DNA from: a virus
Lineage: Duplodnaviria > Heunggongvirae > Uroviricota > Caudoviricetes
Direction: 5' to 3' (one strand)
Length of the DNA: 47,560 nucleotides
Virus record (IMG/VR): IMGVR_UViG_2630968533_000001
This document shows, one piece after another, positions 4,488-47,550 of the stretch (the stretch's first letter is position 1; every line of letters starts with the position of its first letter). A program made the translations under genes and the position numbers. Below the pieces are notes generated by a model. The model was not told where the DNA came from. It was given only the letters and a program-made list of their open reading frames with translations, and made no database searches.

Positions 4488-4512
4488 TAGGCCCCTTCGG
4501 GGGCCTTTTTTA
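4488..4512 (+). terminator. Rho-independent terminator (AGGCCCC-TTCG-GGGGCCT then T-run)
   Basis: Perfect GC-rich hairpin followed by TTTTTTAT. Confidence 0.55.
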
Positions 4513-4548
4513 TGGTTGAATTTAAACGCTGGAGGCCGTCACCTTCTC

Positions 4549-4797
4549 TTACTTCTGGTTGTATTGAGCCTTGAGTAACTCAAAAGATTTTGTCAGCACT
4601 TCTTTCAATGACATATCCATTGAGCTGGCGAACGTTTTGTACTCGCGTTTAAATTCAGGGTCGACGTTAAACGCCATTTGTGCCCCACCTGATTTGGTTC
4701 TGGTTGGCGTTTCAGTCGGGTCGAAAACCTGCGGTTGTTCGATCGATGGCGGTACGCCTTTGCTGTTCTTCTTTGGTGGTTTTGATGGTCCGGCCAT
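4549..4797 (-). CDS. ParG-like small ribbon-helix-helix partition/centromere-binding protein (82 aa)
   Basis: ORF track; lies directly downstream of parA in the same orientation; basic flexible N-terminus and C-terminal RHH-like segment MAFNVDPEFKREYKTFASSMDMSLKEVL; SD AGAGGGGA upstream. Confidence 0.5.
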   Translation of the reverse strand: MAGPSKPPKKNSKGVPPSIEQPQVFDPTETPTRTKSGGAQMAFNVDPEFKREYKTFASSMDMSLKEVLTKSFELLKAQYNQK

Positions 4798-39998: not shown

Positions 39999-42845
39999 GT
40001 GAGTAAATTATTATTTACGATGACTGACGCCGGGCGTAAGGCGCTGGTTAATGCCAACAAGACTGGAACAAATAAAGTTGAGATCGTTTCTGTTGGTTTA
40101 GGTAGTAGATATTATGCCACATCAACCACACAAACAAAAATAACAGATGAAATAAAGCGACTTACCACAATAGGAGGCAAAGTCGTTTCTCCTGATACCA
40201 TTCATGTAACTGCGAAGGATGATAGTAAAGATGAGTATGTTGTCCATACAATAGGTTTGTATACAAATAAAGGAACATTGTTTGCTGTATACTCGCAAGA
40301 ACAAGTAATAATAAATAAAGCATCTTCTACAATTGCTTTAATATCAAGTGATATAGCAATTAAAAATCTTGATACTAAAAACATTACATTTGGTGATGTT
40401 GAGTTTATTAACCCTCCCGCAACCGAAACTGTTGTTGGAGTAGCAAGATTTGCTAATGAACAAGAAATTGATGCAGGTACAGATGATTCCCTGGCTGTTT
40501 CAGCAAAGCGGCTTAAGCAAGCTATTGTAAAACATGAGCAATCACGTAATCATCCTGATGCAACTTTAACATCAAAAGGCATTGTTCAACTCAGTAATGC
40601 CACCAATAGCACGTCTGAAAAGCTCGCAGCGACGCCTAAGGCTGTTAAGGCTGCATATGACCTGGCTAACGCTAAATACACCGCACAGGACGCTACCACG
40701 GCGCGAAAAGGGATTGTTCAGCTCAGTAGTGCCACTAACAGTACGTCTGAAACGCAGGCGGCAACGCCAAAAGCGGTCAAGGCAGCAAATGACAACGCAA
40801 ATTCACGTCTGGCGAAAAATCAGAACGGTGCAGATATCCAGGATAAATCAGCTTTTCTGGACAATGTTGGCGTTACCAGCCTGACGTTTATGAAAAACAA
40901 TGGCGAAATGCCGCTTGATGCTGATCTGAATACGTTTGGTCCTGTTAAGGCTTATTCAGGTATCTGGTCTAAAGCAACATCCACCAACGCAACACTGGAG
41001 AAAAATTTCCCGGAAGATAATGCTGTCGGTGTGCTTGAGGTTTTTGCTGCCGGCAATTTTGCAGGTACGCAACGCTTTACCACGAGAGACGGCAATGTAT
41101 ACATGCGTAAACTCGCCAATAAGTGGAATGGCACTGATGGTCCGTGGGGCGTATGGCGTCACACTCAATCTGCTACCCGCCCTTTGAGTACGACTATAGA
41201 CCTGAATACGCTTGGAGCCGCCGAGCATCTTGGTTTATGGCGTAACAGTAGCTCAGCTATAGCTTCATATGAACGCAATTATCCAGAGGAAGGCGGCTTT
41301 GCTCAGGGGATGCTTGAGATCCTCGAAGGCGGAAATTATGGAAGAACGCAACGTTATACCACTCGCCGTGGAAATATGTATGTCCGCTGTCTTGCGGCAA
41401 GCTGGGATGCATCAAATCCGCAGTGGGAACCGTGGTTAAGAGTCGGTCATCAGTCAGAGAGTCGTTATTACGACGGTGATTTGAATGATGTAACCTCACC
41501 AGGTATTTACAGCGTTACAGGTAAAGCGACCAACGGTCCAATACTGGACGGAAACGGCGTGACAGTCCTCGGTATTCTGGAGGTGTTGAGGCGCTTTGAT
41601 GGTGTTAATGTATGGCAGCGTTATACAACTGCCGGAACAGGTACAACCCTTAAAGGCCGCACCTTTGAGCGCGTCTTTACCGGCAGCTCATGGAGCGAAT
41701 GGCGGGAAGTCTACACCTCGTATTCACTTCCCCTGAATCTGGGTATCGGCGGTGCTGTGGCAAAGCTCACCAGCCTGGACTGGCAGACCTACGATTTTGT
41801 GCCGGGCAGTCTGATAACCGTTCGGCTTGATAACATGACCAATATTCCCGACGGTATGGACTGGGGCGTCATTGATGGCAACCTGATAAACATCTCAGTC
41901 GGTCCGAGTGATGATTCTGGTTCGGGACGCTCAATGCATGTATGGCGCAGCACTGTAAGTAAAGCCAACTACCGCTTTTTTATGGTTCGCATTTCAGGAA
42001 ATCCGGGAAGCCGCACGATCACGACAAGACGTGTGCCAATTATCGACGAAGCTCAGACATGGATGGCGAAACAGACATTCAGCGGTGGTCTTTCAGGCGA
42101 ACTATCCGGCAATGCTGCTACAGCAACAAAGCTGAAAACGGCAAGGACAATTAACGGCGTAAAATTTGACGGCTCGGCAAATATTGAAGCGTTTCCGCCA
42201 GGTGTTCCGCTGCCGTGGCCATCAGATACGCCACCTGCAGGTTATGCAATCATGCTGGGGCAGACGTTTGATAAGGCAGCATATCCGAAACTGGCTATTG
42301 CCTATCCTTCTGGTGTTATTCCAGATATGCGCGGCTGGACAATCAAGGGCAAACCCGCCAGTGGTCGGGCCGTATTGTCTCAGGAACAGGATGGCATTAA
42401 ATCGCACACCCACAGTGCCAGCGCATCCAATACGGATTTGGGTACGAAAACCACATCGTCGTTTGATTACGGTACTAAATCAACGAATAACACAGGTGCA
42501 CATACCCATAATGTATCTGGTACTGCAAATAGTGCTGGCGCACATACTCATACCGTTCCATTAAGGAGACCAAACAGTGGCGGTATGAATTTCGACTGGC
42601 TGGATGGTTCATCAAGTGGCACGGTGGTGGGGAATGGAACTGTGCCTTCTTCTGGCGCACATACCCACTCAGTATCAGGTACCGCTACAAGTGCTGGGGC
42701 ACATGCACACACTGTTGGTATTGGCGCTCATACGCACTCTGTTGCGATTGGTTCACATGGACACACCATCACCGTTAACGCTGCTGGTAACGCGGAAAAC
42801 ACCGTTAAAAACATCGCATTTAATTATATTGTGAGGCTTGCATAA
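39999..42845 (+). CDS. Tail fibre protein (948 aa; GTG start)
   Basis: ORF track; duplicated collar motif [21 protein letters not shown]; His-rich C-terminal GAHTH repeats; followed by Tfa. Confidence 0.85.
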
Positions 42846-43462
42846 TGGCATTCAGAATGAGTGAACAATCACGTACCGTAAAAATTTATAACCTGCTGGC
42901 CGGAACTAATGAGTTTATTGGTGAAGGTGACGCATATATTCCACCTCATACAGGGCTGCCAGCTAATTCTACAGATATCGCCCCACCGGAAATTCCTGCT
43001 GGCTTTGTGGCAGTTTTTAACAGTGAAAATGAATCGTGGAATATTGTTGAAGACCATCGTGGTAAAACGGTCTATGACGTGGCGTCGGGGGACGCATTGT
43101 TTATTTCTGAACTCGGACCGCTACCAGAGAATGTCACCTGGTTGTCGCCAGCAGGGGAGTATCAGAAGTGGGACGGCGTATCCTGGGTGAATGATGAGGA
43201 AGCAGAAAAACTGTTTCGGATACGGGAAGCGGAAGAGAAAAAGGCAAGGTTGATCCAGGAAGCAACAGATAACATCGCAATTCTGCAGGATGCAGTTAAT
43301 CTTGAAATAGCAACAAACGAGGAAAATTCACAACTGGATTCCTGGAGAAAATACAGAGTATTAGTGAGTAGAATTGACACCAGTACAGCTCCGGATATCG
43401 TATGGCCAGAGCTGATGAATCAGGGTTATGTTCGGGAGGACGAGCAGATAACTTCAGACTGA
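42845..43462 (+). CDS. Tail fibre assembly protein (Tfa)
   Basis: ORF track; 205 aa immediately after the fibre gene. Confidence 0.75.
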
Positions 43463-43989
43463 AATTTAGTGATGAATGTTGAATCATCAGGAATATCATG
43501 CAATACCAATGCATGAGCACCTATTGTGACATTGTTTCCTATACGCACTTTGCCACCAAGAATGGTGGCATTACAACCAATGGTCACATTATGCCCTATA
43601 ACAATATCCATATCATTAAATTCCCCGCGAAGTCCAATAGTTACTCCGGGCTTAATTGAACAATTTTCACCGATTGTTACTTTGTGACCGATAACAACAC
43701 TGTTGAGATAAGAAATATCAAAGCCTTTCCCTATATTTACAGTTAAAGGGACTGTTACATTATATTTATCAAGAATGAAACGTTCTATTTTTCCCGCAAT
43801 CTTCCGACAGTATCCGCCTTTATCAAAAAGGTATTTGGCTATGCGCCACCAAAATAAATAACGAACCCTTCTATGTTTTATTGCGCGAACAATTGCCTTT
43901 CGCCAGGAGAAAGGACGCTCGCTACCGATTACTTCATAGTGAATACAGTCTTTAAGTTCATTAATATTCATATCTTTATTATTCAGCAT
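43426..43989 (-). CDS. Hexapeptide-repeat (left-handed beta-helix) acetyltransferase, CysE/WcaB-like
   Basis: ORF track; repeated [LIV]-G-x-x-x-x-I-G hexapeptides ([49 protein letters not shown]); convergent, 3' end overlaps Tfa by about 37 nt; AT-rich. Confidence 0.75.
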
Positions 43990-44469
43990 AAGATAATCAT
44001 GTGACCAATTATTGTAATAATTTTAATGGTATGTTTCTACTGGCTATCCAGCGTGTCTGATACCCAGTAACAAATCGTTAACACAGGTGCAATCAAATGG
44101 TGAGTGTTAAGACTGGCCACTTATTACCAGGTATGAGGGTATGAGTGGCCAGCATTAAATCAGAACAGCCCTTTAACTGAACTGGCCGCGCTGTTAAGGG
44201 ATGATGTCACCTTATCTTTGAAGCCGGACAGCATATTGCTGAACGATGAGTTTACCGCAGGTTTCTGGCTGGGAATCATTGACTGGAGTTAGGCCAGTAG
44301 TATGATGCTCGCAAAACGAGATCCAATTTAGATCCTTTTACTGGTGGATTATCGTTCGATCAGTGAGAGACTTCGTGCATGACCGAAAGTGTTGTGGTAG
44401 AGTTCTCTTAAAACCACGTAACGTGGTTATGATTGTGGGTGTCTGGTTGGAAAGTGACCAGATATGGAA

Positions 44470-44590
44470 ACAAAAAGCCCGCAGATAAATCTGCGGGCTT
44501 CTTGCGACATCCACGGAAAACCAACAATTAACCATGGGCGCCTCGACAACTCCCATTATACGTTGGTTTTCCGTGGACGCAAGAGCGAAC
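44470..44590 (-). ncRNA. CopA-like antisense RNA region (copy-control hairpins in the repA leader)
   Basis: On the minus strand: long stem-loop (44510-44577, arms TCCACGGAAAACCAAC / GTTGGTTTTCCGTGGA) followed by hairpin GCCCGCAG-ATTTA-CTGCGGGC and U-run (44471-44499), the architecture of IncFII CopA antisense RNAs. Confidence 0.45.
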
Positions 44591-44592
44591 AT

Positions 44593-45441
44593 ATGGATAG
44601 ACCAATGCCGTCTCTACGTTCAGCTTACGTTTGTAATTTGTCGCCGGAGTTCCAGCCTCCAAAGCACCATACGCACAAGCTGCCGCTGGTGTTATCTGAT
44701 GCTTTACAGCGCATTAATGGGCGTGATCTTACGTGTGAGGTTGCGTTCTACGTTAATCAACCGTCAGAGCGGAAGCGCCGGATAAACGAGCATCGTCGTC
44801 GGGCGATTAATGCTGTGATCGCTGCGATTTTGCACCATGTAAACATCATTTCTAAGCGGGTTCTGGCCAGTGCTGAGGCGTTGGCTGATTTTTGCGGCCT
44901 GTCTACCGTATCCGAAGCTGGGAACAAGTCTATAACACGCTGTACAAGGGCGTTGTCGCAACTGAAAGCGTTAGGTTTTATTGATTATGAACGTCGCTGG
45001 GATCGGGTGAATAAACAGTATTGGCCAGCGAAAATAGAGATTCGTGATCAACTGCTGGAAACCGTTGGTATTACTGAACAAGCATGGAGACGTGCGGTTA
45101 GCCAGAAACTTAATTACTTCAATGCGAAGAATAGCGAACGGCTTAAAAAAGCGATAACGGAGGCTGATTATAAGCGTATTGTTATTCAGGAGCAGATGGA
45201 GAATGTATGGCGTCAGAGGAAGACGGCCAGAGAGATAAAGGCAAAACAGAAAGCAGCGGAGAGAGCTGCGCGTCTTGTTCGGGAAAAGGGAGAGGCCGAA
45301 CTTCGTCATCAAATCACTAGAGAGGTTAGCCAGGAATTTGCTGATGGCATGTATCCTGGAGCTGACCTTGCATATTTACGATCCCTCGTTGAGCAGCGTT
45401 ATAACAGGTTAAGAAAGACCTGGAAATCACTCCAACATTAA
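44593..45441 (+). CDS. repA: Replication initiator RepA (IncFII RepA1-like)
   Basis: ORF track ORF 44464-45441; core CGLSTVSEAGNKSITRCTRALSQLKALGFIDYE recalled as close to R100/R1 RepA1; start placed at ATG 44593 to match the ~285-aa length of RepA1. Confidence 0.75.
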   Translation: MDRPMPSLRSAYVCNLSPEFQPPKHHTHKLPLVLSDALQRINGRDLTCEVAFYVNQPSERKRRINEHRRRAINAVIAAILHHVNIISKRVLASAEALADFCGLSTVSEAGNKSITRCTRALSQLKALGFIDYERRWDRVNKQYWPAKIEIRDQLLETVGITEQAWRRAVSQKLNYFNAKNSERLKKAITEADYKRIVIQEQMENVWRQRKTAREIKAKQKAAERAARLVREKGEAELRHQITREVSQEFADGMYPGADLAYLRSLVEQRYNRLRKTWKSLQH

Positions 45442-46897: not shown

Positions 46898-47251
46898 TTG
46901 AGCATGTGGACGGTACTTTTTAGCCAGCGATTTGACGACTGGCTAAATGAGCAAGAAGACGCTCTTCAGGAAAAGGTTTTGGCTGATTTGAAAAAGCTAC
47001 AGGTTTACGGACCTGAGTTACCCAGGCCATATGCCGATACCGTAAAAGGTTCTCGGTACAAAAATATGAAAGAGCTTCGCGTTCAGTTTTCTGGCCGTCC
47101 GATAAGAGCCTTTTATGCGTTCGATCCGATTCGCCGGGCCATCGTTCTTTGTGCAGGAGACAAAAGTAACGATAAGCGGTTTTATGAAAAACTGGTGCGT
47201 ATAGCTGAGGATGAGTTTGCAGCACATCTGAACACACTGGAGAGCAAGTAA
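46898..47251 (+). CDS. RelE/ParE-superfamily toxin (HigB-like gene order)
   Basis: ORF track; KELRVQFSGRPIRAFYAFDPIRRAIVLCAGDKSNDKRFYE matches the addiction-module killer signature as recalled; toxin gene precedes the antitoxin. Confidence 0.7.
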   Translation: MSMWTVLFSQRFDDWLNEQEDALQEKVLADLKKLQVYGPELPRPYADTVKGSRYKNMKELRVQFSGRPIRAFYAFDPIRRAIVLCAGDKSNDKRFYEKLVRIAEDEFAAHLNTLESK

Positions 47252-47550
47252 TGAGAACATTAGATGAGGCGATTGCCAGCCGTTCACCTGAAAGCCAGGC
47301 GCGAATTAAAGAAATGGCAGATGAGATGATTCTTGAGGTCGGCTTGCAGATGATGCGTGAAGAACTCCAGTTATCACAAAAACAGGTTGCTGAGGCGATG
47401 GGTATAAGCCAGCCAGCAGTAACAAAGCTGGAGCAGCGCGGAAATGATTTAAAGCTGGCGACATTAAAGCGTTACGTTGAAGCTATGGGAGGCAAATTAA
47501 GCCTGGATGTTGAGCTTCCCACAGGAAAACGAATAGCGTTTAACATCTGA
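47251..47550 (+). CDS. HTH (XRE-type) antitoxin, HigA-like
   Basis: ORF track; start overlaps toxin stop (TAATG); HTH LSQKQVAEAMGISQPAVTKLEQRGNDLKLATL. Confidence 0.7.
   Translation: MRTLDEAIASRSPESQARIKEMADEMILEVGLQMMREELQLSQKQVAEAMGISQPAVTKLEQRGNDLKLATLKRYVEAMGGKLSLDVELPTGKRIAFNI

What the first reader, a model, noticed from the sequence alone, without database searches (positions are those of the whole stretch)
43426..43989. Convergent hexapeptide acetyltransferase moron after the tail-fibre assembly gene
A CysE/WcaB-like left-handed beta-helix acetyltransferase is encoded on the opposite strand in the classic moron slot after Tfa, with its 3' end overlapping the Tfa 3' end. The gene is AT-rich compared with its neighbours. 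Candidate roles are acetylation of a surface polysaccharide (lysogenic conversion, receptor masking) or of a small molecule.
Basis: partly seen in the sequence, partly recalled or inferred. Interest (0 to 1): 0.55.

Follow-up and report, generated by a model that had tools for sequence, protein, structure and literature searches.

The report
Tail-fibre-linked acetyltransferase-like phage cargo gene
A small phage cargo gene, wrongly named "serine acetyltransferase" in databases, moves between E. coli phages together with the tail-fibre tip and probably alters the cell-surface sugar (LPS core) that this fibre binds, although it has lost the usual catalytic residues of its enzyme family.

Summary
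The gene is real. It lies on the minus strand at 43426-43971 (181 aa); the ATG at 43989 is not conserved. It encodes a soluble protein with the serine-acetyltransferase fold (helical N-domain plus left-handed beta-helix, pLDDT 90). It is not a serine acetyltransferase: it scores far below every NCBIfam cut-off, and the SAT catalytic and serine-binding residues are replaced (Asp143 to T79, Asp157-His158 to S93-Y94, Arg192-His193 to M127-D128). Relatives at 36-52% identity keep the Asp/Glu-His pair. Only this subclade has Thr/Lys/Val plus Tyr, yet dN/dS is 0.02-0.09, so the protein is under selection. The gene has its own conserved sigma-70-like promoter. It travels as one cassette (gp37/Stf-type fibre tip, Tfa, this gene) among P2-like, lambdoid and P1-like elements and this IncFII-RepA phage-plasmid, and 183 of 5,426 complete E. 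coli genomes carry it. A 29-codon gpU remnant marks import from a P2-like phage. The convergent pairing with tfa recurs across 36-100% identity and at least six Tfa types. One relative sits inside an LPS core (waa) cluster. Phage phiNP has a similar tip and a similar neighbouring gene and uses LPS core GlcII as receptor. Best reading: a cargo gene expressed in the lysogen that modifies the LPS core receptor. The chemistry is uncertain. This is a new variant of a known kind, of moderate interest.

The parts
43426..43971 (-). Coding sequence of the LbH transferase-like protein (181 aa from the conserved ATG at 43971; stop codon 43428-43426). The mechanical ORF extends to the ATG at 43989.
   Evidence: ORF list. 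Pfam Hexapep 1e-12. PHROG 2154 at 7e-79 over the full length. AF2 model pLDDT 90.4. Start codon from alignments A1 and A3. dN/dS 0.02-0.09.
44011..44039 (-). Candidate sigma-70 promoter of the gene: -35 TAGAAA (44039-44034), 17-nt spacer, -10 TACAAT (44016-44011).
   Evidence: Promoter scan. The -35 is invariant, and the -10 is TACAAT or TATAAT in four different host elements. Similarity to one of them ends immediately upstream of the -35. This is a consensus-level prediction, and no transcript data exist.
42845..43462 (+). Tail fibre assembly gene (tfa, 205 aa allele), convergent to the LbH gene. Its last 15 codons overlap the 3' end of the LbH gene.
   Evidence: Pfam Caudo_TAP 1e-39. PHROG 105. 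A 2-nt deletion removed the ancestral stop codon.
42192..42845 (+). Distal tip of the tail fibre (last ~217 codons of the 948-aa fibre gene 39999..42845). This is the left part of the mobile cassette.
   Evidence: The blastn cassette boundary lies at 42192-42194 in two prophages. The tip is 64.5% identical to the T4 gp37 C-terminus, 65% to the phiNP fibre and 73-79% to lambdoid Stf.
44163..44249 (-). Remnant of the last 29 codons of a P2-type gpU-like tail gene. This scar shows the cassette came from a P2-like prophage.
   Evidence: tblastn gives 28/29 identical to the gpU-like protein of prophage locus L021. DNA similarity to L021 runs to 44250.
44166..44184 (-). Terminator-like hairpin between the gpU remnant and the LbH promoter. 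In the P2-like donor it would end the tail operon and insulate the cargo gene.
   Evidence: Terminator scan. Its position relative to the gpU stop is inferred.

Best explanation
The gene is a self-contained phage cargo gene (moron) that belongs to a mobile host-range cassette: a T4-gp37/lambda-Stf-type fibre tip, its chaperone Tfa, and this gene. It is transcribed from its own sigma-70-type promoter, independently of the late tail operon, so it is probably expressed in the lysogen or plasmid carrier. It makes a soluble cytoplasmic protein, presumably trimeric, with the serine-acetyltransferase fold. The protein descends from a lineage of polysaccharide and LPS-core O-acetyltransferases. The most likely job is to modify the LPS outer core while it is assembled on the cytoplasmic face of the inner membrane. 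The outer core is the structure that this type of fibre tip reads. Modifying it would change adsorption of the same phage and of related phages, giving superinfection exclusion, protection of carrier cells and progeny, or surface conversion. Shown here: gene, fold, promoter conservation, cassette structure, purifying selection, context of relatives, loss of the SAT active-site residues. Inferred: expression in the lysogen, LPS core as target, effect on adsorption. Open: whether it still transfers an acetyl group, because the canonical Asp-His pair is replaced by Thr and Tyr.
For: Fold and family: Hexapep above cut-off. AF2 model pLDDT 90 with four N-terminal helices plus LbH. The best structural matches are all SATs, TM 0.62-0.73. 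There is no membrane segment. Lineage: relatives at ~30% identity lie inside polysaccharide clusters with glycosyltransferases, a flippase and NeuB. The 40%-identical Leminorella relative lies between WaaY and a convergent WaaL-type ligase, downstream of GT4 and GT8 core transferases. Own promoter: TAGAAA-17-TA(C/T)AAT is conserved in four host elements and the cassette ends at the -35. A terminator-like hairpin and the end of gpU lie upstream. Cassette: window ~42192 to 44040-44250 is shared at 82-96% identity with P2-like prophages, an IncY P1-like plasmid and a further myovirus-type prophage lying beside host gene yfhH (L022). A related tfa allele (84% identical) with the LbH gene convergent to it also lies in a lambdoid prophage at bioA-ybhB. 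185 E. coli records carry the gene, against about 177 carrying this tfa allele at 90% identity or more, and 3 of 3 spot-checks show the pair. Deep linkage: 40 of 42 close viral loci and 16 of 38 loci at 36-52% identity have a Caudo_TAP gene convergent within -36 to +30 nt, with six Tfa types confirmed. Receptor: the tip is gp37/Stf-like. phiNP has a 65%-identical tip and a relative in the same slot, and it needs LPS core GlcII, not OmpC (PMC6456863). Selection: dN/dS 0.02-0.09 at dS up to 0.57. Precedent: prophage CUS-3 NeuO is an LbH O-acetyltransferase that acetylates the capsule (PMC3046976).
Against: The canonical catalytic pair is missing. Position 94 is His in 84 of 95 family members and Tyr only in this subclade. 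Position 79 is Asp, Glu or Ser in most members and Thr, Lys or Val here. No alternative His, Asp or Glu is conserved throughout the Tyr subclade; position 128 is D in most members, H in one and N in Hafnia phage yong2. No O-acetylation of the E. coli LPS core is known to me. phiSM, which needs core GlcIII, still infects phiNP lysogens, so at least that relative does not grossly mask the outer core. No terminator follows the gene. Promoter activity is predicted, not measured. Linkage to tfa could partly reflect a favoured insertion slot at the end of the late operon and not function. Relatives P0015 and P0016 are standalone chromosomal genes with no phage or LPS context.
Confidence: 0.42

Rival explanations
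1. The protein is a pseudo-enzyme. It kept the LbH scaffold but lost acetyl transfer, and it works by binding. It could sequester an LPS or polysaccharide intermediate, a nucleotide sugar, acetyl-CoA or a host protein, or it could serve as a scaffold.
For: Both residues of the Asp-His pair were lost together in this subclade only. Strong purifying selection persists, so the protein is used. Tyr94 is itself conserved from 52% to 100% identity. Non-catalytic LbH proteins exist (dynactin p25/p27, eIF2B epsilon and gamma; own knowledge), and the protein gives a weak LbH_EIF2B hit.
Against: The other family-wide motifs are all retained (G89, G107-E108-N109, G119, G132, A141, G151, N153, A158), as expected for an intact cofactor groove. 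Some LbH N-acetyltransferases (QdtC, WlbB) work without a catalytic base (own knowledge; I could not retrieve the papers). No binding partner is suggested by any data.
Confidence: 0.2
2. The gene is generic hotspot cargo whose function has nothing to do with the tail fibre. Examples would be an anti-phage defence, or acetylation of a small molecule or antibiotic. In this view it is linked to tfa only because the end of the late operon is a tolerated insertion slot and is swept along when fibre tips are exchanged.
For: In P2-like phages the slot after tfa is the Z/fun hotspot, which carries varied cargo including defence genes and shows fibre swapping (bioRxiv 10.1101/2024.10.15.618418). Relatives also occur at prophage edges away from tfa and as standalone chromosomal genes. 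Weak NCBIfam matches to Vat and CatB xenobiotic acetyltransferases exist.
Against: PADLOC gives no hit. The pairing with tfa persists over 36-100% identity and six Tfa types, which is more than one recent hitch-hike. The closest non-phage contexts are glycan clusters, including waa. The Vat and CatB scores are 22-27 bits against cut-offs of 300-475.
Confidence: 0.2
3. The protein acts on the phage's own fibre or Tfa, as a modification or maturation factor of the receptor-binding apparatus.
For: It is almost one-to-one linked with one fibre-tip/Tfa allele. In virulent S. thermophilus 987-group phages, a 31%-identical relative follows the tail structural genes on the same strand. In the P2-like donor it is co-directional with the FI-to-U tail genes.
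Against: It is convergent to fibre and tfa, has its own constitutive-type promoter, and is separated from the tail operon by a terminator-like hairpin. Most phages with very similar tips (T4, lambda-like Stf) have no such gene. I know of no precedent.
Confidence: 0.07
4. The protein is a genuine serine O-acetyltransferase (a cysE-like auxiliary metabolic gene) that boosts cysteine synthesis, as the database name says.
For: The fold is closest to solved SATs, and the TIGR01172 and EpsC models give the best NCBIfam E-values.
Against: Scores are 71.5 bits against a cut-off of 210.65 (cysE) and 81.2 against 150 (EpsC). Asp143, Asp157, His158, Arg192 and His193 of SAT are all replaced. Only about 76 residues precede the LbH, and the first helix starts at residue 9. 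The C-terminus ends ...SSSRT and not in the Ile that docks into CysK (own knowledge of the cysteine synthase complex).
Confidence: 0.03

Closest known systems
NeuO, the polysialic acid O-acetyltransferase of E. coli K1 prophage CUS-3
   Same: Both are prophage-borne, single-gene, soluble LbH (hexapeptide) proteins that are not part of the host glycan cluster. NeuO modifies a surface polysaccharide that phages recognise (PMC3046976).
   Different: NeuO belongs to the MAT/GAT/NodL branch and has a catalytic His plus Trp. It is phase-variable through a 5' heptanucleotide repeat. The window protein has the SAT-type architecture, lacks the canonical His, has no repeat, and its presumed target is the LPS core, not a capsule.
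Short SAT-like O-acetyltransferases of polysaccharide clusters (WcaB of colanic acid, EpsC-type and the ~186-aa family)
   Same: They share the same size and architecture (N-terminal helices plus about five LbH coils) and are 26-35% identical. Conserved motifs include G-K-G-F, G-E-N and I-G-N-N-V. The cluster context points to glycan acetylation.
   Different: Those proteins keep the Asp...His pair and are embedded in biosynthesis clusters. The window protein scores below the WcaB and EpsC cut-offs (62 against 196, and 81 against 150), has Thr and Tyr instead, and is a standalone phage gene.
Serine O-acetyltransferase CysE
   Same: It is the best structural match and has the same two-domain fold.
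   Different: The catalytic and substrate-binding residues are replaced, the N-domain is shorter, there is no CysK-binding tail, and scores are far below the cut-off.
Cargo of the P2 Z/fun hotspot and classical lambdoid morons
   Same: It occupies the slot directly after the tail fibre assembly gene. It has its own promoter and lower GC than its neighbours, and it is exchanged together with fibre genes.
   Different: Z/fun itself is unrelated in sequence. No terminator was found after this gene in this allele.
PHROG 2154 and the 'sat'/'sacF' genes of phiNP and P1-like plasmid JL22
   Same: The window protein matches PHROG 2154 over its full length (7e-79). The phiNP and JL22 genes are homologues (39% and 36% identical) that the literature lists as unexplained or untested (PMC9603915, PMC6456863).
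   Different: The phiNP copy keeps the Asp-His pair; the JL22 copy was not checked. None of these genes has a tested function.

Membership tests
Hexapeptide-repeat LbH acyltransferase superfamily (Pfam PF00132) | Hexapeptide repeats scoring above the Pfam gathering threshold | tested here: met
   47.5 bits against a cut-off of 27.
Hexapeptide-repeat LbH acyltransferase superfamily (Pfam PF00132) | Left-handed beta-helix fold | tested here: met
   AF2 model with pLDDT 90.4. Short strands recur with an 18-residue period from residue 77 to about 170. All top PDB matches are LbH enzymes.
Hexapeptide-repeat LbH acyltransferase superfamily (Pfam PF00132) | Catalytic histidine at the family's conserved position | tested here: not met
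   The window protein has Tyr94 where 84 of 95 homologues have His. All 38 viral relatives at 36-52% identity have His.
Hexapeptide-repeat LbH acyltransferase superfamily (Pfam PF00132) | Trimer with acyl-CoA bound between subunits | not testable with these tools
   Only a monomer model could be made and no coordinates were available. Conserved small residues of the groove are retained.
Serine O-acetyltransferase (CysE; TIGR01172, NF041874, NF008349) | Score above the curated equivalog cut-off | tested here: not met
   71.5 against 210.65; 81.2 against 150; 44.7 against 397.
Serine O-acetyltransferase (CysE; TIGR01172, NF041874, NF008349) | Catalytic Asp143-His158 and serine-binding Asp157, Arg192, His193 (E. 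coli numbering) | tested here: not met
   The aligned residues are T79, Y94, S93, M127 and D128, in phmmer alignments to three solved SATs and in two MAFFT alignments.
Serine O-acetyltransferase (CysE; TIGR01172, NF041874, NF008349) | SAT two-domain fold | tested here: met
   Foldseek E 1e-8 to 1e-6 and TM 0.62-0.73 to SATs of six or more species.
Serine O-acetyltransferase (CysE; TIGR01172, NF041874, NF008349) | C-terminal tail ending in Ile that binds CysK | tested here: not met
   The C-terminus is ...EVICSSSRT. The feature itself is from own knowledge.
WcaB colanic acid acetyltransferase (TIGR04016, NF007564) | Score above the curated cut-off | tested here: not met
   60.1 against 194.65 and 62.4 against 196, and only the LbH part matches.
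NeuO-type phage-borne capsule O-acetyltransferase | Prophage-borne LbH gene outside the host glycan cluster | tested here: met
NeuO-type phage-borne capsule O-acetyltransferase | Phase variation by a 5' tandem repeat | tested here: not met
   TRF finds no repeat in or upstream of the gene.
NeuO-type phage-borne capsule O-acetyltransferase | Catalytic His plus opposing Trp of the MAT/GAT/NodL branch | tested here: inconclusive
   Matches to the Maa and LacA models are weak (30-33 bits against cut-offs of 314-347). No residue-level structural alignment was available.
Moron (autonomous cargo gene in a phage late region) | Own promoter | tested here: met
   Met at the sequence level only: the TAGAAA-17-TA(C/T)AAT promoter is conserved and the cassette boundary lies at the -35. 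Activity was not measured.
Moron (autonomous cargo gene in a phage late region) | Own terminator | tested here: not met
   No terminator-like site follows the stop codon. A relative (L149) does have a bidirectional terminator there.
Moron (autonomous cargo gene in a phage late region) | Present or absent between genes that are adjacent in related phages; deviant composition | tested here: met
   Lambda, T4 and many Stf phages have similar tips and tfa genes without it. GC is 0.377 against 0.46-0.50 for the neighbours.
Known anti-phage defence systems (PADLOC-DB 2.0) | Match to any defence protein model | tested here: not met
   No hit at E up to 1.

The most novel reading that the evidence does not exclude
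A conserved LbH protein has discarded the universal Asp-His catalytic pair (Tyr in place of His) yet stays under strong purifying selection and co-travels with one tail-fibre tip. It could work by a new mechanism. One possibility is a rewired active site, with Tyr94 or a loop residue such as Asp128 as catalyst, or a switch of acceptor chemistry. Another is a non-enzymatic binder of LPS-core intermediates that tunes the phage's own receptor. This would be a receptor-editing module that phages exchange as a unit together with the matching receptor-binding tip.
Probability: 0.2. Interest if true: 0.65.

Novelty: new variant of a known kind. Interest (0 to 1): 0.45.

Why it matters
The gene occurs in about 3% of complete E. 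coli genomes and in many phage-plasmids and P1-like plasmids that carry resistance genes. Everywhere it is named "serine acetyltransferase" or "transferase", and the only papers I found that mention it list it as unexplained or untested. Three results give it a testable function: it is not a cysteine-pathway enzyme, it belongs to a portable unit of fibre tip, chaperone and cargo gene, and its relatives point to the LPS core. If it edits the receptor of its own fibre, it would affect host-range prediction, phage therapy against E. coli (gp37/Stf-type fibres are common in therapeutic T-even phages), and superinfection between phage-plasmids. The loss of the catalytic pair under purifying selection is also a clean case for studying how LbH enzymes change mechanism or become pseudo-enzymes.

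Tried and rejected
- **Invertible segment, as in P1 or Mu.** In IncY plasmids the gene sits where P1 has its C segment. I found no flanking inverted repeats of crossover-site type and no invertase in the annotated twin plasmid, so I rejected this.
- **Phase variation like neuO.** There are no tandem repeats.
- **Known defence system.** PADLOC gave no hit.
- **Known RNA element between the gene and repA.** Nothing reaches an Rfam threshold; only terminator-like partial hits appear.
- **Terminator after the gene.** None was found, and the fold z-score is -0.9.
- **The 23-nt inverted repeat linking the 5' leader (43996-44018) to the coding region (43570-43592).** It is 83% complementary. I did not pursue it, as it is probably chance.
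- **Relocated catalytic residue.** H102 and H133 are not conserved within the Tyr subclade. D128 is conserved in most members but is H in P0013 and N in yong2. The result is inconclusive.
- **Single versus repeated loss of the catalytic pair.** NJ bootstrap supports the wider clade (181/200), but monophyly of the Tyr sequences gets only 80/200, so this is unresolved. The first bootstrap script timed out.
- **QdtC/WlbB papers on base-less LbH catalysis.** They are not held in the library, so that point rests on my own knowledge.
- **Residue-level geometry.** Model coordinates are not exposed to scripts, so I could not measure geometry around Tyr94.
Full report
**1. What is in the sequence**

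It converges on the tail fibre assembly gene tfa (42845..43462; Pfam Caudo_TAP 1e-39, PHROG 105). tfa in turn follows a 948-aa tail fibre gene (39999..42845; Phage_fiber_2 and Collar domains). The next gene downstream is an IncFII-type RepA (44464..45441; NF040977, 231 bits against a cut-off of 70).

The window is nearly identical to 47-49 kb non-mobilizable E. coli plasmids that carry a full myovirus gene set. It is therefore a phage-plasmid.

The conserved start codon is the second ATG, at 43971 (181 aa). Relatives begin at that Met, and the first ATG is destroyed in one homologous prophage.

The 37-nt 3' overlap with tfa is real but specific to this allele. A 2-nt deletion removed the tfa stop codon that is present in the 190-aa allele. 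This extends Tfa by 15 residues; in the other allele the two genes are 11 nt apart.

The gene has GC 0.377 and GC3 0.30. Its neighbours have GC 0.456 (tfa), 0.498 (fibre tip) and 0.478 (repA). This is lower than its neighbours but only at the 12th percentile for the window.

**2. What the protein is**

- It matches Pfam Hexapep above threshold and PHROG 2154 ("unknown function") over its full length at 7e-79.
- The AlphaFold2 model, built on a 95-sequence alignment, is confident (pLDDT 90.4). It shows four N-terminal helices followed by a left-handed beta-helix.
- All top matches in the PDB are serine acetyltransferases, with TM 0.62-0.73 and 20-29% identity.
- It has no hydrophobic segment, so it should be a soluble cytoplasmic protein.

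**3. It is not a serine acetyltransferase**

Every NCBIfam equivalog model scores far below its cut-off: EpsC 81 against 150, cysE 71.5 against 210.65, WcaB 60-62 against about 195.

In phmmer alignments to three solved SATs and in two MAFFT alignments, the SAT functional residues are replaced as follows:

| SAT residue (E. coli numbering) | Role | Window residue |
|---|---|---|
| Asp143 | catalytic pair | T79 |
| His158 | catalytic pair | Y94 |
| Asp157 | serine binding | S93 |
| Arg192 | serine binding | M127 |
| His193 | serine binding | D128 |

The C-terminus ends ...SSSRT. It does not end in the Ile that docks SAT into CysK (that requirement is from my own knowledge).

**4. An unexpected feature: the family's own catalytic pair is gone**

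In the 95-sequence alignment, position 94 is His in 84 sequences, Tyr in 8 and Asn in 3. The eight Tyr sequences are exactly the window protein and its nearest relatives, down to 52% identity. Hafnia phage yong2 also has Tyr.

The same sequences have Thr, Lys or Val where the others have Asp, Glu or Ser. Relatives just outside this group keep Asp/Glu...His. These include P0015, P0016, P0020, P0022, Citrobacter phage phiNP, all 38 viral-contig relatives at 36-52% identity, and three chromosomal ones.

The gene is not decaying. Nei-Gojobori dN/dS is 0.02-0.09 between alleles with dS up to 0.57, and 0.05 between two distant Tyr-type members.

NJ bootstrapping supports the clade formed by the Tyr sequences plus their dyad-intact sister lineage (181/200). 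It does not resolve whether Tyr arose once; monophyly of the Tyr sequences gets 80/200.

No alternative His, Asp or Glu is conserved across the whole Tyr group. The other family-wide motifs are retained. Whether the protein still transfers an acetyl group therefore cannot be decided here.

**5. The gene is an autonomous unit**

Upstream regions from four different host elements were aligned: this plasmid, an IncY P1-like plasmid, a P2-like prophage and another prophage. All share -35 TAGAAA (invariant), a 17-nt spacer and -10 TACAAT or TATAAT. Similarity to the most distant element stops exactly at the -35.

Further upstream, 44163-44249 on the minus strand encodes the last 29 codons of a P2-type gpU-like tail protein, 28/29 identical to prophage locus L021. 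A terminator-like hairpin follows at 44184-44166.

This scar shows that the plasmid imported the cassette from a P2-like prophage. It also shows that in the donor the cargo gene is insulated from the tail operon. In P2-like phages the slot after tfa is the documented Z/fun accessory-gene hotspot.

No terminator follows the gene in this allele. No repeat that could give phase variation is present.

**6. It travels with the receptor-binding tip**

blastn shows that window ~42192 to 44040, 44059 or 44250 is shared at 82-96% identity with unrelated backbones. That stretch covers the last ~217 codons of the fibre, tfa, the LbH gene and its promoter.

- The backbones are P2-like prophages, an IncY P1-like plasmid at the place of P1's C segment, and a further myovirus-type prophage beside the host gene yfhH.
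- A lambdoid prophage at bioA-ybhB has the LbH gene convergent to a related tfa allele (84% identical).
- Among complete E. coli genomes, 183 of 5,426 carry the gene: 158 chromosomal places and 57 plasmid places.
- This tfa allele at 90% identity or more occurs in about 177 records, against 185 records with the LbH gene. About 2,680 further records have other tfa alleles that match only the N-terminal part.

The arrangement is old. In viral contigs, 40 of 42 close copies have a convergent Tfa at -36 or +11 nt. Among dyad-intact relatives at 36-52% identity, 16 of 38 have a Caudo_TAP gene convergent within 4-30 nt, belonging to six Tfa types. Hafnia phage yong2 and phiNP show the same layout.

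**7. What it probably acts on**

- Generic relatives at about 30% identity lie inside polysaccharide biosynthesis clusters.
- The clade-level relative in Leminorella grimontii (40% identity, pair intact) lies inside the LPS core cluster. The order is a GT4 and a GT8 core glycosyltransferase, WaaY (PF06176, 3e-102), a 258-aa ORF, the LbH gene, then a convergent Wzy_C/WaaL-type ligase.
- The co-transferred fibre tip is of the T4 gp37 / lambda Stf type: 64.5% identical to the T4 gp37 C-terminus. From established knowledge, these tips read OmpC and the LPS outer core.
- phiNP has a tip 65% identical to this one and an LbH relative in the same slot. It was shown experimentally to need outer-core GlcII (waaO) and not OmpC (PMC6456863).
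- A cytoplasmic enzyme can reach the core, because the core is built on the inner face of the inner membrane.

The best-supported mechanism is therefore a cargo gene, expressed in the carrier, that modifies the LPS core receptor of its own fibre type. Prophage CUS-3 NeuO is the functional precedent (PMC3046976).

**8. Caveats**

- The catalytic pair is missing.
- I know of no O-acetylation of the E. coli core.
- phiSM, which depends on GlcIII, still infects phiNP lysogens.
- Some relatives are standalone chromosomal genes or lie at prophage edges away from tfa.
- The promoter is only predicted.
- The rivals are a pseudo-enzyme or binder, fibre-unrelated hotspot cargo, modification of the phage's own fibre, and a true SAT. 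They are listed with their tests; only the true SAT can be rejected on present evidence.

**9. Novelty**

The gene is already present in databases, named "serine acetyltransferase", "transferase" or "LbetaH domain-containing protein". Two papers mention it. [quoted passage not shown] The other lists the phiNP homologue as a "fitness" cargo gene without testing it (PMC6456863).

Phage-borne LbH acetyltransferases are a known kind. What is new here:
- the demonstration that the name is wrong;
- the structure and origin of the cassette;
- the link to the LPS core;
- the loss of the catalytic pair under purifying selection.

I rate it a new variant of a known kind, of moderate interest.

Noticed in passing
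window 44163-44249 (-): Remnant of the last 29 codons of a P2-type gpU-like tail gene (28/29 identical to an E. coli P2-like prophage). It lies between the LbH gene and repA and records the direction of cassette transfer into the phage-plasmid.
   Followed up: yes
window 44464-44580: The mechanical repA ORF starts at 44464, but the RepA family match begins at residue 57. The first ~110 nt hold a strong hairpin with a T-run on the minus strand (44504-44471) and a perfect 16-nt inverted repeat (44510-44525 / 44562-44577). This looks like an IncFII-style leader and antisense-RNA control region. No Rfam family reached threshold.
   Followed up: partly
window 39999-40400 versus 40400-42845: The tail fibre gene is a composition mosaic. 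GC is 0.32-0.38 in the first ~400 nt and 0.45-0.53 in the rest, consistent with repeated module exchange. A recombination joint at ~42192 (the Collar domain region) is shared by several prophages.
   Followed up: partly
window 46898-47550 (+): A Gp49/RelE-ParE-type toxin (46898-47251) overlaps an HTH antitoxin-like gene (47251-47550). This is a likely plasmid addiction module of the phage-plasmid.
   Followed up: no
window 43570-43592 and 43996-44018: A 23-nt inverted repeat (83% complementary) pairs the predicted 5' leader of the LbH mRNA with its coding region 400 nt away. It may be chance.
   Followed up: no
L008 6001-7697 (Enterobacteriaceae bacterium BIT-l23 chromosome): Three tandem LbH paralogues (181, 193 and 195 aa) with no phage or polysaccharide genes within 6 kb. 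The first is 52% identical to the window protein and keeps the Asp-His pair.
   Followed up: no
L014 5010-5489 (Streptococcus phage 9874 and about 20 other S. thermophilus phages): Dairy phages carry a 31%-identical relative directly after the tail structural genes on the same strand, before the holin. An LbH gene next to the receptor-binding apparatus therefore also occurs in Gram-positive phages isolated from dairy whey.
   Followed up: no
L149 ~4510-4560: A dyad-intact relative has a clear bidirectional terminator (A-run, GGCGC-AGTAA-GCGCC, T-run) between its stop codon and the convergent tfa. The window allele has no equivalent.
   Followed up: partly
E. coli records NZ_CM180513 (H107), NZ_CM180511 (H135), NZ_CP017844 (H134): Natural disrupted copies of the gene: an IS1 insertion in H107, a partial match in H135 and a 5'-truncated copy in H134. 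They could serve as ready-made knock-outs for phenotype comparison.
   Followed up: no
L002 9172-10194 (IncY P1-like plasmid NZ_CP083486): About 1 kb without listed genes lies between the LbH gene and the holin genes, at the place where P1 carries the rest of its invertible C segment and cin. It may hold remnants.
   Followed up: no
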